Shown: positions 932 to 5,582, counted from the first letter of the stretch. The stretch is 64,000 nucleotides of DNA from a virus (IMGVR_UViG_3300005077_000936:28727-92726); one strand, 5' to 3'. The notes: a model not told the origin generated them from the sequence alone. Numbers and translations are program-made.

Positions 932-1060
932 CAGGAGGTCTGCTTTGGTGTTTGTGCAGATATAGTGAGGTTTCACCCTCCTGCTGACTTTTAAAAGCTA
1001 CTTACAATAAATTTTCAATCCCTGTCTTTAACTGGAAAAATGAAAAGTAGCTTATTTTTT
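925..1060 (+). other. structured intergenic region (three-way junction followed by a long hairpin)
   Basis: GCAGGAGG(931-938)/CCTCCTGC(977-984) encloses TCTGC/GCAGA and GTGA/TCAC hairpins. AAGCTACTT(995-1003)/AAGTAGCTT(1045-1053) is followed by a T-run. Confidence 0.45.
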
Positions 1061-1081
1061 AATCTTTAAATCTTCAAACTC

Positions 1082-1474
1082 ATGAGTGAAGAAATCAAAA
1101 ACCAAGGTGCTTTTAATGCCTCTGTTGCAAGAACTCCTAAAGAAATTAGGGAGTCAAGAGGTGCTGCCATCAGTGAAGATGGTGAAATAGCCTATAAAAG
1201 GGCTGTTGAAGATCAGGAATACATTGTCAGAAAGCTCAAGAGGGACAGAGCACAGATGATGGATATTTCTCCAAGTAATTCATTATCATATCTTGTAGCC
1301 AGAGAATTCGATGCCAAAGGCTTTCAGGAAAAAGATATGGAATACAGTATGCAGATTAGGAATGAATCTGTAAAACTTGCTATTCTTAAAGCAAGATATG
1401 AGTATCTTTTTGGAAATGGTGCTGAGTCTGCTGACATTCCTGAAGGTGCTGGTGATGATGTGAAGGAGGTATAA
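1082..1474 (+). CDS. hypothetical helical/coiled-coil protein
   Basis: 130-aa ORF with AT-rich leader, 1 nt upstream of the vWA gene. Confidence 0.8.
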   Translation: MSEEIKNQGAFNASVARTPKEIRESRGAAISEDGEIAYKRAVEDQEYIVRKLKRDRAQMMDISPSNSLSYLVAREFDAKGFQEKDMEYSMQIRNESVKLAILKARYEYLFGNGAESADIPEGAGDDVKEV

Positions 1475-1475
1475 T

Positions 1476-2348
1476 ATGGGTTGGTCAAGATATAGCGTTG
1501 AAAACAGATCATCAAGTGACAGGCATGCATTCTATAATGCCCCTACCACAAAGGTTGAAGATGTCTTTCTTCAACAGAAAGAGGAAAAAGCCCATAATTC
1601 TATGCTTCCTCAAAATGCCCTATTGAGAGAAGCAAGAGATAGTGAGAATCATCCCAATTCTTTTCCTGTCATTTTAGCACTTGATGAAACAGGTAGTATG
1701 ACACATGTTCCTGTTGCTTTTATCAAGCAAGGAATGCCTACACTAATGTCAAAGATACAGCAAGCTGGTACTGATGATCCTGCTCTTTTATTTTTGGCAA
1801 TAGGAGATCATGAATGTGATAATTATCCTCTTCAGGTAGGTCAATTTGAATCAGGTGATGAGCAGATTGACATGTGGCTGACAAGAGTTTATCTTGAAAA
1901 GAATGGTGGTGGCAACAGGGGTGAAAGCTATATGCTTCCTTGGTACTATGCCGTAAATCATACTGTAACTGATGCTTGGGAAAAGAGAAAGATTAAGGGA
2001 GTTCTTATTACCATTGGTGATGAGCCTGTTCTTTCAGGAATCTCAGGCAGAAGTCTCAAAGAGCTTATGGGTCAGGGACAGTTCAATGATTATTACAAAT
2101 CAGAAGAACTCCTTAAACAGGCACAGGAAAAGTGGAATGTATATCATATCCATATTGCTGAAACAGGAGCAGGACAAAGACAATCTACTATTGATGATTG
2201 GAAAAACCTTCTTGGTCAGAATCTAATCGTAGCTGAAAGTTATACTCTGCTTCCTGAGATTATTGCCCAGATCATTGTCAACAACAGTACAAGTATAAAG
2301 CCTTCTGAAGAAGGTAAGGCTCCTGAGCCAACTCAGGAAGTGCTTTAA
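1476..2348 (+). CDS. von Willebrand factor A (vWA) domain protein
   Basis: ILALDETGSM (MIDAS DxTxS), LFLAIGD, LITIGDE strands. Confidence 0.85.
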   Translation: MGWSRYSVENRSSSDRHAFYNAPTTKVEDVFLQQKEEKAHNSMLPQNALLREARDSENHPNSFPVILALDETGSMTHVPVAFIKQGMPTLMSKIQQAGTDDPALLFLAIGDHECDNYPLQVGQFESGDEQIDMWLTRVYLEKNGGGNRGESYMLPWYYAVNHTVTDAWEKRKIKGVLITIGDEPVLSGISGRSLKELMGQGQFNDYYKSEELLKQAQEKWNVYHIHIAETGAGQRQSTIDDWKNLLGQNLIVAESYTLLPEIIAQIIVNNSTSIKPSEEGKAPEPTQEVL

Positions 2349-2355
2349 AAAGCAT

Positions 2356-2876: not shown

Positions 2877-3434
2877 ATGAACATTATTAAAGATGAAGTA
2901 CTTGCTCCAAGAATTAAGAGTTTTCTTGTAGAGCTTTATTCAATTTCTCATGATAAGATGGTCTCTGTACAAGAGGTCTCTTTTGGAGAGTTGTTTAAGA
3001 AACACAAATTACCTATTTCTCCCAAAAGACAGCTTATCCTTGATGCCTTAACAAAGAAGGGGCTCATAATCATTGAAGGAGAAAGAAGCCACATGAAGTA
3101 CAAATGGGCTACTACTGAATTTGATGCTGATAACCTTACTGACACCATTATGGCTTCTGTAAGTACCACTATTGCCCTTGAAAAGAGAGAAACTGTGCCC
3201 GTAAAATCAAAAGTTCTTATCAATGACAGGTTCTCAGTAAGGGATAAAGCCGTAATTCTTTATCAGGGTAAGCCAAGAAAGGCTAAAATCATAGGCATCT
3301 ATCTTGATGAGAAGGATGACAGTATCCTGTATGAGGTAAGGCTTGATGAAGAAACCAAACTCAGTTGCTACAACAATGACATTTTTCATTCTCTTGATGA
3401 CTTGCTTAATCACCTGAGAACTACATTCAAATAG
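2877..3434 (+). CDS. hypothetical protein (possible winged-helix N-terminus, SH3-like C-terminus)
   Basis: 185-aa ORF; fold guess from secondary-structure pattern only. Confidence 0.7.
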   Translation: MNIIKDEVLAPRIKSFLVELYSISHDKMVSVQEVSFGELFKKHKLPISPKRQLILDALTKKGLIIIEGERSHMKYKWATTEFDADNLTDTIMASVSTTIALEKRETVPVKSKVLINDRFSVRDKAVILYQGKPRKAKIIGIYLDEKDDSILYEVRLDEETKLSCYNNDIFHSLDDLLNHLRTTFK

Positions 3435-3491
3435 ACACTTACACTAAGGGGTAGAAGTGTCTTCATTACTAACCATTAAATTTTTACCCAA

Positions 3492-5342
3492 ATGACAAAA
3501 GTACAGATTGAAATGTCCAAGAAAGTATCAGAAAATGCTTTCTATGGATTAAGAAACTGTCTCTTGCTTTTTCAGGCAGGTGGCAAAGGTTCTGTATCCA
3601 TTGCTATGCTTACAAATGCATGGAATGAGGTAAAGGACAACAAACAGTATCGTGAACTCTTTTTCACTATTCTCTTCTCAATAGGTGATGTTACTGCAAG
3701 GCAACATAATCTTTTTGGAAGGAATAAAGTTGATTCAGGTGGTGGAGCATTTAGGGAAGCATTCTCTATTGTTATGCAGTGGATGAAAACCCATGTTCCT
3801 GACCAGTATAAGAAATTTCTCTTCTCAAGACTCTTTAATGAGTACACTACATTTGACAATATCTTTGGTATCAGGGTACAGACTGTAAAGAAAACAGCAA
3901 GAGTAAATAAGATTGTCAACATGATTGGCACATCAGACAATATTCCTATGCTTGCAGAGTTTGCAGAACAGATTATCAAGGGCAATAATGCCTTTGATAA
4001 GTTTTTGCTTGCCAAGTTCCTTACCAGACCAAGGTTTTCAAAGAGACAGAAACATAAGAAAATTCTTCCTGCCACTCTTGCCAATATGAGGCTCAAGGCT
4101 GAACTTATTAAGCAAATTTCTGACAGGTGTGGTTTTACTTATGATGTAAAGGACAATTACACTGATTTCAAAGGCTGGTATGAGTGGCGTAAGCCTAAAC
4201 TCACTGAAATGGAGTCCGTTGTATTCTCTTCAGGAAATGCCAAGCTCTTAGACCAGCAGACTTTTCTTGCTTGGATTGAGCAAATGCCAGCAGGTGCAAG
4301 ATTCAGGGTGAGAAAAAGAATTCTTACCAAAGAAAATCAGGTAAAGCCTAAGTGGGCCCCTCTTGGTGAATGGTATCTGCAATGGGAGAAATTCAAAGAG
4401 AACAGGCAGACTGAGCAGAGAGAGCTTGAGGAAAAAGTCAGGCAGGGAACAGCAACTGTTGATGAAAAGGTAGAGCTTAAAGCCATTACCAAAGCAGCAA
4501 AAGTTACAACAGGAGCTGTTAACTTTCAGGAAATCATGGGTCAAATACTCAAGGGCAATGTTGATAAGATCAAGATTCAGCCATTTCTTGATAAAATCAA
4601 TATCCCTTACAATACCCTTGTATTTGTGGATGATTCAGGTTCAATGCATTCATCAGGAAGAGAAATAGGAGGAGCTCATGTATCAGCTTTTGAATTTGCA
4701 ACATTCATTGCTGCAATCTGCCTGCTTAAGAATCCTTCTGATGATGGAAGAAACCTGATTGGTATGTTCTCCAACAACTGTAGAATGTTCAGCAGTATTA
4801 ATGCAATGAAAGTAACTACTAACAGGTTTGTGAGAGAAGCACCAAAAGAAGTAACTCTTCCCCTTTATGAGCCCAATCTTCACTTTCTTGATAACCTGCA
4901 TAATCTCAGGGGGTTTGTTGCTGCCCATACAAAGCCTGAGAGTACAAACATCTCTGCTATTCCTGAAGGAATTCATGCATGGACACAGGGAGACCCTGCC
5001 AAGATAGAACAGATTCAGGAATTTCCTATCTGGACTGTCATTACTGATGGAAATTGGAACAATGTTTATAATCCAGCAAGCTCAATGAATGACTTTTTCA
5101 TGAAATGTGAAAAGTACTTTGGCTTTAAGCCCTATGTGATTGCTATGGATGTTTCCTACAGTTCTGCAAATGTGGATATCTTTCAGGGTATTCCAAATAT
5201 GATGTATGTTCCTGCAAATCCTGCTGCTATTGAACAGTTTCTTGTCAATTACAAAGACATTGAAACAGTGGATGTTTACATGCCATTGTTATCTCTGTAC
5301 AGAAGTAACAGATATGAACCTGTAAGAAATGCAGTATTGTGA
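3492..5342 (+). CDS. TROVE/Ro60-like (DUF2828-like) protein: helical N-terminal region plus C-terminal vWA domain
   Basis: Basic helical N-terminal ~370 aa containing LF..IGD..R...GGG..RE.F; C-terminal VFVDDSGSM, TNIS, VITDG (complete MIDAS). CDS is certain; family call is by architecture. Confidence 0.6.
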   Translation: MTKVQIEMSKKVSENAFYGLRNCLLLFQAGGKGSVSIAMLTNAWNEVKDNKQYRELFFTILFSIGDVTARQHNLFGRNKVDSGGGAFREAFSIVMQWMKTHVPDQYKKFLFSRLFNEYTTFDNIFGIRVQTVKKTARVNKIVNMIGTSDNIPMLAEFAEQIIKGNNAFDKFLLAKFLTRPRFSKRQKHKKILPATLANMRLKAELIKQISDRCGFTYDVKDNYTDFKGWYEWRKPKLTEMESVVFSSGNAKLLDQQTFLAWIEQMPAGARFRVRKRILTKENQVKPKWAPLGEWYLQWEKFKENRQTEQRELEEKVRQGTATVDEKVELKAITKAAKVTTGAVNFQEIMGQILKGNVDKIKIQPFLDKINIPYNTLVFVDDSGSMHSSGREIGGAHVSAFEFATFIAAICLLKNPSDDGRNLIGMFSNNCRMFSSINAMKVTTNRFVREAPKEVTLPLYEPNLHFLDNLHNLRGFVAAHTKPESTNISAIPEGIHAWTQGDPAKIEQIQEFPIWTVITDGNWNNVYNPASSMNDFFMKCEKYFGFKPYVIAMDVSYSSANVDIFQGIPNMMYVPANPAAIEQFLVNYKDIETVDVYMPLLSLYRSNRYEPVRNAVL

Positions 5343-5499
5343 TATTCCCTGAAGGAAACTGAACTGGTGTTAAAGCATCTATGACCAAGGGTAGCGTCAT
5401 GTTTAAGCATATCAGGGATAGAGAACATCGTTAAAGCCAGCACAGAATAAAACCGAGTGCGTGATGACTAAGTCTACAAAGCCGGATATGATGTTTTTG
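5343..5499 (+). ncRNA. putative two-domain structured RNA between the Ro-like gene and its terminator
   Basis: TCCCTGA(5346-52)/TCAGGGA(5412-18) encloses ATGAC/GTCAT; AACATCG(5424-30)/TGATGTT(5489-95) encloses GCAC/GTGC and GAC/GTC; no credible ORF. Confidence 0.45.
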
Positions 5500-5541
5500 G
5501 AAAGAGAGTAGTGAATTTATTCATTGCTCTCTTTCTTTTTT
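5500..5541 (+). terminator. intrinsic terminator
   Basis: GAAAGAGAGTAGTGAA/TTCATTGCTCTCTTTC stem followed by a T6 run. Confidence 0.8.
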
Positions 5542-5582
5542 GTTTAACAGTAACTTTTTTGTTTCACTTAATACTTACAACC

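What the first reader, a model, noticed from the sequence alone, without database searches (positions are those of the whole stretch)
1000..5579. ACTTACA motif repeated in five non-coding positions of the Ro-like island
ACTTACA occurs at 1000 (stem arm of the leader), 2423 and 2793 (inside both tRNA insertions, just 3' of a hairpin), 3437 (hairpin AGACACTT/AAGTGTCT at 3433-3462 in the 5' UTR of the Ro-like gene) and 5573 (HU leader). Four of the five read ACTTACAA. Five copies within roughly 0.9 kb of non-coding sequence is well above a rough chance expectation of less than one. Inference: it is a shared binding site, for example for the Ro-like protein, coupling its own mRNA leader to the tRNA-like RNAs as decoys or ligands.
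Basis: partly seen in the sequence, partly recalled or inferred. Interest (0 to 1): 0.6.

Follow-up and report, generated by a model that had tools for sequence, protein, structure and literature searches.

The report
Conserved RNA handle beside phage Ro-like gene
The repeated ACTTACAA is real: it is the invariant strand of a short RNA helix that a group of crAss-like gut phages attach to tRNAs, to tRNA look-alikes and to the message of their own Ro60-like protein, so it is probably that protein's docking site, though binding has not been tested.

Summary
Observation confirmed and extended. All five copies sit where stated. The whole 98.7-kb phage genome has eight non-coding sense-strand ACTTACA copies (seven read ACTTACAA), all in 2.0 kb of non-coding DNA beside the 616-aa gene. 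It is the commonest 7-mer there, and no 7-mer reaches that count in 1000 shuffles.

In 30 related phage loci ACTTACAA occurs 213 times on the sense strand, against 21 antisense and 18.5 expected. Of these, 183 lie within 3 kb of the gene.

The motif is half of an RNA helix. (A)GwY-ACUU pairs with (A/U)AGU-RwC, and the variable bases covary. An unpaired ACAA follows. The helix appears in several settings:
- clamping whole tRNAs;
- as a grafted hairpin inside tRNA-like RNAs, including both "tRNA insertions" in this window;
- closing circularly permuted tRNA-like RNAs with the arm order of YrlA Y RNAs;
- in the leader of the 616-aa gene in 27 of 30 loci.

The protein's predicted fold matches Ro60/TROVE over its full length, but there is no Pfam hit. 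The canonical Y-RNA motif (GNCGAA) and any Rfam match are absent.

Best reading (about 0.55): a Y-RNA-like handle for a divergent Ro60-like protein, with autoregulation. A processing or splicing signal is not excluded. Earlier notes from this scan describe the same handle on adjacent DNA of this genome.

The parts
995..1053 (+). Short clamp unit between the 112-aa and 130-aa genes. The 5' arm is 995-1003 (ends in ACTT), the unpaired ACAA is 1004-1007, the loop is 37 nt, and the 3' arm is 1045-1053.
   Evidence: Sequence. Exact 9-bp complement. The same 14-mer, AAGCTACTTACAAT, recurs at genome 27391. Belongs to the 'clamp, no T-arm' class.
2356..2477 (+). tRNA-like RNA (Leu-type body, anticodon UAG) with the handle hairpin 2409-2426 plus ACAA 2427-2430 grafted into the variable region.
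   Evidence: Rfam tRNA 56.7 bits with a 51-nt insert after the anticodon stem. RNAfold draws the hairpin (unit 0).
2728..2848 (+). Second tRNA-like RNA (anticodon GAA, C at position 37) with the handle hairpin 2778-2796 plus ACAA 2797-2800 in front of a GCAA-capped variable arm.
   Evidence: Rfam tRNA 56.6 bits with a 49-nt insert. RNAfold (unit 1).
3433..3462 (+). Handle hairpin in the leader of the Ro-like gene: 3433-3440 pairs with 3455-3462. The motif variant here is ACTTACAC. It lies 55 nt before the ATG.
   Evidence: Sequence. A homologous leader element is present in 27 of 30 related loci.
3492..5342 (+). 616-aa Ro60-like protein: a helical N-terminal region followed by a vWA domain with a DxSxS MIDAS motif.
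   Evidence: AlphaFold2 mean pLDDT 80. The Foldseek top 11 hits are Ro60/TROVE over the full length. VIA-align Z 12-14 over residues 15-612. D380, S382 and S384 are invariant. No Pfam hit.
5571..5600 (+). Weak copy in the HU gene leader. ACTTACAA is at 5573-5580, the ATG at 5583, and a possible 5-bp partner (AAGTA) at 5596-5600, which would put the start codon in the loop.
   Evidence: Sequence. There is no G at -3. No HU homologue was found in the related loci, so conservation could not be tested.

Best explanation
ACTTACAA is the invariant part of a modular RNA 'handle'. The handle is a 7-8 bp helix whose 5' strand reads (A)G-w-Y-A-C-U-U and whose 3' strand reads (A/U)A-G-U-R-w-C. An always-unpaired ACAA(w)A follows on the 5' strand.

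A clade of crAss-like phages attaches this handle to several RNAs:
- whole tRNAs, as a clamp joining leader and trailer;
- tRNA-shaped RNAs, as an extra hairpin in the D loop, the variable arm or the anticodon-arm position;
- circularly permuted tRNA-like RNAs, where it is the terminal stem, as in YrlA-type Y RNAs;
- short A/U-rich hairpin RNAs;
- the 5' leader of the adjacent Ro60-like gene.

Inferred mechanism. The Ro60-like protein recognises the conserved 5' strand and the ACAA tail and forms RNPs with these RNAs. The tRNA-like part would then act as the effector or tether module, as in Ro60-Y RNA particles. When free protein exceeds its RNA partners it would bind the copy on its own mRNA and lower translation. 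In about half of the relatives that helix encloses the start codon.

Shown here: the motif, the helix and its covariation, the topologies, the linkage to the gene, and the fold resemblance. Inferred: who binds the helix, and what the RNPs do.
For: - Enrichment and confinement. There are eight non-coding sense copies in 2.0 kb beside the gene and none in the genome's other non-coding DNA. In 30 loci there are 213 sense and 21 antisense copies against 18.5 expected, with 183 within 3 kb of the gene. In five complete relatives the copies cluster only beside the gene.
- RNA helix. 90 of 220 copies have an exact cognate 7-mer partner within 200 nt, against a mean of 24 (maximum 35) for non-cognate arms. 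RNAalifold predicts the helix with compensatory changes in 21 permuted units and 36 clamped tRNAs.
- YrlA-like order. The permuted units read terminal stem, T arm, closed 7-bp acceptor stem, D arm, as described for YrlA (PMC4201824). Two units lack the anticodon arm altogether.
- Some handle-bearing RNAs carry the handle where the anticodon arm should be, so they cannot decode.
- Leader copy in 27 of 30 loci. The partner lies at +20 to +29 in the coding sequence in about 15 loci and upstream in others, and the arms covary.
- Only the Ro-like gene is constantly linked; the other neighbours differ between loci.
- Ro60-like fold. The Thermus phage Ro60 (9KOP) is among the best matches, and it binds Y-like RNAs encoded next to its gene (PMC12135203).
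- Not a general tRNA signal. 157 of 199 sense-strand tRNAs in the same loci lack the motif. The tRNA array of crAss001, where annotation of the first 50 kb shows no Ro-like gene, has none.
- Of 118 IMG/VR stretches with two spaced copies, only the two with true arrays carry the gene.
Against: - No binding data exist.
- The motif bears no resemblance to the known Ro60 sites (GGUCCGA, GNCGAAN0-1G). The latter occurs in 4 of 223 units and nowhere in window 900-6000.
- No Rfam Y-RNA match.
- The protein has no TROVE Pfam hit. Fold matches have low TM-scores (0.26-0.36) and Z of only 12-14, a range where helical repeats can match by shape alone.
- Many permuted units keep a canonical anticodon loop (U33 and R37 in 21 of 21) and a 7-bp acceptor stem. 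Real tRNAs, including an opal-reading one, are clamped. Both facts would also fit a maturation signal.
- Linkage to the gene is co-occurrence, not proof of interaction.
- The Ro-less control rests on one genome, of which only the first 50 kb was examined.
Confidence: 0.55

Rival explanations
1. The helix is an RNA processing signal, analogous in logic to the archaeal bulge-helix-bulge motif. An endonuclease cuts both strands. A ligase then removes the hairpin from interrupted tRNAs and circularises the permuted ones, so that after RNase P and 3' trimming they become working tRNAs. The clamps around normal tRNAs would simply release them from the transcript.
For: - The same helix occurs in the three contexts that BHB motifs occupy: flanking, interrupting and permuting tRNA genes.
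- Permuted units keep 7-bp acceptor stems with covariation and canonical anticodon loops.
- Near-identical permuted units differ in the anticodon triplet in a way that could switch identity among Asn, Lys, Asp and Ile.
- Removing the hairpin plus about 12 nt gives ARAGORN-callable tRNAs in 17 of 30 cases.
Against: - No consistent cut positions emerge from the deletion test, because ARAGORN tolerates many deletions in loops.
- The residual 'variable region' after joining would be 20-40 nt of unstructured A/C-rich RNA.
- Some units have the handle in place of the anticodon arm or lack that arm entirely, so no tRNA could result.
- The helix also sits in mRNA leaders and on 40-55-nt non-tRNA units.
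- No bulge is conserved on the 3' strand.
- The handle-bearing set often duplicates anticodons of ordinary tRNAs in the same locus.
- No nuclease or ligase was identified.
Confidence: 0.17
2. The helix is recognised by some other factor, such as a host RNA-binding protein or RNase, or another phage protein. Alternatively it acts without a protein as a stabilising end structure. On this reading the Ro-like gene is merely a co-inherited neighbour.
For: - Nothing computed here shows a physical link between protein and RNA.
- The motif is unlike any known Ro60 site.
- In this window the motif also precedes the 130-aa/vWA gene pair and the HU gene.
Against: - Only the Ro-like gene is constantly adjacent, while the other neighbours turn over.
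- The element sits on that gene's own leader in 27 of 30 loci.
- The motif is kept unchanged at 27% protein identity (L032).
- The architecture parallels Ro60-Y RNA systems, including a phage one.
Confidence: 0.18
3. ACTTACAA is a DNA-level transcription signal. It would be a promoter for the phage's own polymerase or its sigma-like factor, or part of a terminator.
For: - It lies upstream of genes and tRNAs at variable distances.
- The flank (TAnRGnY-ACTTACAA) looks superficially like single-subunit polymerase promoters (my own comparison from memory).
- The phage encodes a sigma-70 region-2 protein at 26300-27178.
- The 15 nt downstream of the motif are G-poor.
Against: - Bases -3 to +3 covary with a partner 12-110 nt away, so they must be present in a folded single strand.
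- Copies lie inside tRNA bodies.
- Copies are confined to one 3-8 kb neighbourhood per 100-kb genome rather than spread over transcription units.
- 157 of 199 tRNAs lack it.
- The consensus scan shows no sigma-70-like hexamers next to the copies.
Confidence: 0.05

Closest known systems
YrlA-type bacterial and phage Y RNAs with Ro60/Rsr (Chen et al. 2014, PMC4201824)
   Same: - The RNA genes lie next to a Ro60-type gene.
- A terminal stem carries a conserved motif on its 5' strand.
- The tRNA-like domain is in permuted order: T arm, closed acceptor-like stem, D arm.
- There are several different RNAs per locus.
- M. smegmatis YrlA even has a 7-bp acceptor stem, as the units here do.
   Different: - The motif is GwYACUU-ACAA, not GNCGAAN0-1G.
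- There is no Rfam match.
- Most permuted units keep an anticodon arm.
- The same handle is also grafted as a hairpin into otherwise normal cloverleaves, clamps genuine tRNAs, and sits on the protein's own mRNA.
- The protein is too divergent for Pfam TROVE.
- There are up to about 15 copies per locus.
Thermus phage phiLo Ro60 with Yrl1/Yrl2 (PMC12135203; PDB 9KOP)
   Same: A phage-encoded Ro60 with Y-like RNAs encoded beside its gene. 9KOP is among the best structural matches to the 616-aa model (Z 13.9, 402 residues aligned).
   Different: - The phiLo RNAs were found through the canonical CGAA motif.
- There are two RNAs, not arrays.
- No tRNA grafts, clamps or leader copy are reported in the passages read.
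- Sequence identity to the protein here is about 12%.
Permuted and intron-bearing tRNA genes processed at bulge-helix-bulge motifs (archaea; the red alga Cyanidioschyzon merolae). Cited from general knowledge, not read here.
   Same: One helix type occurs flanking, interrupting and circularly permuting tRNA genes.
   Different: - There is no 3-nt bulge / 4-bp helix / 3-nt bulge geometry.
- The helix is 7-8 bp with a tail on one strand only.
- It is found in a bacteriophage.
- No splicing endonuclease was identified.
- Several units cannot yield a tRNA.
Autogenous translational repression by RNA-binding proteins that bind a mimic of their main RNA target on their own mRNA (ribosomal proteins, phage T4 gp32/RegA, MS2 coat). 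Cited from general knowledge.
   Same: A copy of the element carried by the partner RNAs sits on the protein's own leader, often enclosing the start codon.
   Different: Repression has not been shown. In this window the hairpin lies 30 nt upstream of the ATG rather than around it.

Membership tests
Ro60 / TROVE proteins | Helical (HEAT-like) ring domain followed by a vWA domain | tested here: met
   The model has mean pLDDT 80. The only full-length structural matches are Ro60/TROVE chains: Foldseek E about 1e-5 for ranks 1-11, and VIA-align Z 11.3-13.9 spanning residues 15-612. vWA-only proteins follow with 160-195 residues aligned. Ring closure itself was not examined. TM-scores are low.
Ro60 / TROVE proteins | Sequence match to the TROVE family profile | tested here: not met
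   No TROVE hit in Pfam for the protein or for any of 21 homologues at E <= 1. Only weak VWA_2 hits in 5 of 21. PHROGs gave a weak hit to phrog_850, 'RNA-binding protein' (E 3.6e-4), over the vWA part.
Ro60 / TROVE proteins | MIDAS motif (DxSxS) in the vWA domain | tested here: met
   D380, S382 and S384 are invariant in 21 homologues.
Ro60 / TROVE proteins | Binds Y RNAs or misfolded RNAs | not testable with these tools
   Needs EMSA, CLIP or a complex structure.
YrlA-type Y RNA | Encoded adjacent to a Ro60-type gene | tested here: met
   183 of 213 sense-strand copies lie within 3 kb of the gene in 30 loci. Copies cluster only there in five complete genomes.
YrlA-type Y RNA | GNCGAAN0-1G motif near the 5' end (the proposed Rsr site) | tested here: not met
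   Present in 4 of 223 units, and nowhere in window 900-6000.
YrlA-type Y RNA | tRNA-like domain ordered T arm, closed acceptor-like stem, D arm, closed by a stem of the 5' and 3' ends | tested here: met
   RNAalifold on 21 permuted units predicts the terminal helix, T arm, a 7-bp closed acceptor stem and an anticodon-like arm. 19 of 24 pairs show compensatory changes. This holds for the permuted class only (28 of 257 copies).
YrlA-type Y RNA | Match to a curated Rfam Y-RNA model | tested here: not met
   No Y-RNA family hit at gathering score in the window, nor at E <= 5 in window 900-6000.
Bulge-helix-bulge splice / permuted tRNA system | Two 3-nt bulges separated by a 4-bp helix | tested here: not met
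   The helix is 7-8 bp. Only the 5' strand has a conserved unpaired tail (ACAA). Nothing is conserved next to the 3' strand.
Bulge-helix-bulge splice / permuted tRNA system | Joining the flanks gives a canonical tRNA at fixed cut sites | tested here: inconclusive
   19,250 in-silico deletions of 30 units were tried. Many boundaries give ARAGORN calls, and the best shared boundary works in 17 of 30.
Bulge-helix-bulge splice / permuted tRNA system | Splicing endonuclease and ligase available | not tested
   The phage and host gene sets were not searched for EndA-, RtcB- or Rnl-type enzymes.
Promoter element | Recognised as DNA, independent of a distal complement, and spread over transcription units | tested here: not met
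   There is a covarying distal partner. Copies are confined to one neighbourhood. Copies lie inside tRNA bodies.

The most novel reading that the evidence does not exclude
The handle is a cut-and-rejoin or end-holding signal that lets a bacteriophage express interrupted and circularly permuted tRNA genes as working tRNAs, possibly in two pieces. RNase P and CCA addition would open the closed acceptor stem while the handle helix holds the halves together. The Ro60-like protein would gate this maturation. These would be the first permuted or split tRNA genes in a virus of bacteria. The hypervariable anticodons of near-identical units would then be rapid retargeting of decoding, or of decoys for host anticodon nucleases.
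Probability: 0.15. Interest if true: 0.9.

Novelty: new variant of a known kind. Interest (0 to 1): 0.7.

Why it matters
Ro60-Y RNA particles are known in animals, in some bacteria and in a few phages, but what they do in phages is largely open. Here a very abundant group of human-gut phages appears to carry a divergent version with three unusual properties:
- a different, sharply defined recognition helix;
- a modular use of that helix: clamped on real tRNAs, grafted into tRNA mimics, closing permuted mimics, and placed on the protein's own message;
- up to about 15 partner RNAs per genome.

This gives a simple, mutable sequence to test by EMSA or CLIP. It gives a search key (GwYACUUACAA plus its complement) for annotating hundreds of unannotated RNA genes in crAss-like genomes. 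It also gives a possible handle on how these phages manipulate tRNA biology or host tRNA-directed defences.

If instead the helix is a splice or circularisation signal, it would be a new kind of RNA processing in bacterial viruses.

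Tried and rejected
Relatives at 41-52% identity, plus one at 27%, came from IMG/VR through an alignment query.
- Single-protein search for related loci gave nothing for the Ro-like protein and one locus for the helicase. A broad Ro-less crAss panel could therefore not be built. crAss001 served as the only Ro-less control, and only its first 50 kb was examined.
- The INPHARED phage collection gave no match by blastn or tblastn.
- The double-motif pattern scan of IMG/VR returned mostly chance hits inside coding sequence (Thr-Tyr-Lys/Asn codons). 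Only 2 of 118 were real arrays.
- The in-silico splice test was uninformative.
- Pairing does not extend in register beyond position -4: 302 Watson-Crick pairs against 295 expected. The G-U versus A-C asymmetry test for RNA-level selection could therefore not be used, and my earlier impression of a 10-14 bp helix is withdrawn.
- The alignments A2 and A3 were chosen for having a partner, so their lack of broken helix pairs is partly by construction. The unbiased evidence is.
- Chance or simple duplication was rejected. A MITE-like inverted repeat was rejected because the two arms covary between copies and the element is strand-specific.
- No paper mentioning the motif in this context, or Ro60 in crAss-like phages, was found.

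Full report
**What the window is.** The window is bases 28727-92726 of a 98,740-bp virus record. The record has the layout of a crAss-like phage. A block of + strand genes includes ribonucleotide reductase, helicases and a sigma-like protein. Giant minus-strand ORFs follow, one of 4,568 aa. The flagged stretch holds small genes, two Rfam tRNA hits with inserts of about 50 nt, a 616-aa ORF at 3492-5342, and an HU gene.

**Observation.** ACTTACA is at 1000, 2423, 2793, 3437 and 5573 on the + strand, and four copies read ACTTACAA. These are the only non-coding sense copies in the window. Three more lie just upstream of the window, at genome 25965, 27109 and 27391. Each is beside or inside a tRNA or tRNA-like gene. 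All eight sit in 2,005 nt of non-coding DNA between 25.9 and 34.4 kb. ACTTACA is the commonest 7-mer there, and ACTTACAA is the commonest 8-mer in the genome's 9.1 kb of non-coding DNA. In 1000 shuffles no non-trivial 7-mer exceeded 6 copies.

**Conservation.** The 616-aa protein has 684 metagenomic homologues. An alignment of 21 of them (A1) retrieved 33 IMG/VR loci. In the 30 non-redundant loci (569 kb), ACTTACAA occurs 213 times on the gene's strand and 21 times on the other, against 18.5 expected. Of the 213, 183 lie within 3 kb of the gene. In five complete 96-106 kb genomes the copies form one cluster beside the gene and are at background elsewhere. The most distant homologue (27% identity, L032) still has the unchanged motif. 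The flanks are also conserved: G at -3 (85%), Y at -1 (93%), A at +9 (70%), followed by a G-poor tail.

**It is a helix.** The ACTT and the three bases before it pair with an AAGT-containing complement. Of 220 copies, 90 have the exact cognate 7-mer complement within 200 nt. Arms taken from other copies find a complement in 24 cases on average, 35 at most. Partner distances fall in three groups: 12-25 nt upstream, 40-60 nt downstream, and 80-110 nt downstream. RNAalifold recovers the helix with compensatory changes at the w and Y positions, both in 21 permuted units and in 36 clamped tRNAs. Those two sets were chosen for having a partner. Pairing does not continue in register beyond -4, so the conserved helix is 7-8 bp. 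The ACAA after it is always unpaired. Strand specificity and covariation point to an RNA element. They argue against a promoter or an inverted-repeat DNA site.

**Topologies.**
- Clamp around a complete ARAGORN tRNA: 40 copies, including the opal-reading tRNA at genome 25983-26059.
- Local hairpin inside a tRNA-like RNA: 39 copies. It sits in the D loop, in the variable region (both window examples) or in the anticodon-arm position. In the last case no anticodon loop remains.
- Clamp closing a circularly permuted tRNA-like RNA: 28 copies. The order is T arm, closed 7-bp acceptor stem, D arm and usually an anticodon arm. Two units lack that arm.
- Short clamps around 40-55 nt of A/U-rich RNA: 68 copies. 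These include window 995-1053.
- Of the remaining 82 of 257 copies, 34 have no partner, 20 are hairpins with no T arm nearby, 15 are clamps with a late T arm, and 13 are long clamps with no T arm.

**The leader of the 616-aa gene.** The short-clamp class includes the leader of the 616-aa gene. 27 of 30 loci have the motif within 150 nt upstream of its ATG. In about 15 loci the partner lies at +20 to +29 in the coding sequence, which puts the start codon in the loop. In this window and a few other loci the whole hairpin is upstream, with different, compensating arms.

**The protein.** There is no Pfam hit. The AlphaFold2 model has mean pLDDT 80, and its only full-length matches are Ro60/TROVE structures. 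Foldseek ranks 1-11 have E of about 1e-5. VIA-align gives Z 11.3-13.9 across residues 15-612, and the Thermus phage Ro60 9KOP is among the best. The vWA MIDAS residues are invariant. 'Ro-like' is therefore supported at the level of fold, with low TM-scores.

**Link between the gene and the RNAs.** Among this window's neighbouring genes, only the Ro-like gene recurs in the related loci with the motif. Ordinary tRNAs in the same loci mostly lack it: 157 of 199. Handle-bearing units often duplicate the anticodons of those ordinary tRNAs. crAss001 has 23 tRNAs, and the annotation of its first 50 kb shows no Ro-like gene. It has no copy of the motif in its tRNA array.

**Comparison with what is known.** Chen et al. 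(PMC4201824) describe YrlA RNAs next to Ro60 genes. These have a conserved 5'-strand motif, which Ro60 mainly contacts, and a permuted tRNA-like domain (T, closed acceptor-like stem, D). M. smegmatis YrlA has a 7-bp stem that RNase P cleaves. The Thermus phage phiLo Ro60 binds two adjacent Y-like RNAs (PMC12135203). The permuted units here share that architecture. The defining sequence motif GNCGAAN0-1G is absent, and no Rfam Y-RNA model matches. This system therefore works like a Ro60-Y RNA system but is not a member of the YrlA family as defined. Grafting the handle into cloverleaves, clamping real tRNAs and placing a copy on the gene's own leader are not described in the papers read. No paper on Ro60 in crAss-like phages was found.

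**Rivals.**
- A processing or splicing signal fits the trio of flanking, interrupting and permuting contexts, and fits the well-kept anticodon loops. The deletion test gave no fixed junction, several units cannot yield tRNAs, and the helix also sits on mRNA leaders.
- Another binding factor cannot be excluded.
- A promoter or terminator is contradicted by the covariation, by the positions inside tRNAs and by the confinement to one neighbourhood. The phage does encode a sigma-like protein.

**Verdict.** Earlier AI notes from this scan, on DNA just upstream in the same genome, describe the same 'handle' and 'clamp'. I re-derived both independently here. They are not counted as evidence.

Noticed in passing
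A2 alignment columns 107-113 (L007:8742-8867, L009:12464-12595, L014:12509-12632, L016:12361-12489, L027:12518-12644): Five near-identical permuted units have identical anticodon stems but five different anticodon triplets: GTT, TTT, GTC, GAT and TCA. U33 and A37 are kept in all. This looks either like rapid anticodon switching or like no constraint on the triplet.
   Followed up: partly
G000:C1:22760-23080 (about 5.7 kb before the window start): A different repeat, about ACTTACTT(T)ATCCCTGACCCTAAC, occurs three times in a 650-nt non-coding region at the start of the + strand gene block. A related copy lies near 20950. These are possibly early promoters or an origin.
   Followed up: no
window 5343-5545: A 200-nt non-coding stretch lies after the Ro-like gene. 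It has several GGA motifs, a sub-threshold CsrC-like Rfam hit (27 bits against a cut-off of 61) and a strong terminator-like hairpin at 5499-5536. It may be another small RNA.
   Followed up: no
window 26300-27178: A 292-aa protein has a Sigma70_r2 domain (E 6.8e-8), that is, a phage-encoded sigma-like factor.
   Followed up: no
window 1082-2348; L003:5973-7200; L012:10926-12200: A 130-aa gene plus a 290-aa vWA gene (phrog_2971, with a DxTGS MIDAS-like motif) form a pair that recurs in two related loci. Only in this window does the pair's leader carry the motif.
   Followed up: partly
L008:5706-5829, L012:7518-7636 and 8308-8434, L019:12168-12282, L027:12273-12395: Several clamped 'tRNAs' are called by ARAGORN with four-base anticodons (TTTG, TTCT, TTGG), meaning 8-nt anticodon loops.
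   Followed up: no
G000:C1:25951-26076; L001:9205-9319; L002:6718-6837; L024:9376-9494: The first unit of several arrays is a clamped tRNA with anticodon UCA (opal-reading). In this genome the long ORFs are intact under the standard code.
   Followed up: partly
window 3492-5342: The protein has 684 metagenomic homologues but no tblastn match in the 50,697-record GenBank phage collection. Either near records are withheld by the tool, or this clade is missing from deposited phage genomes.
   Followed up: no
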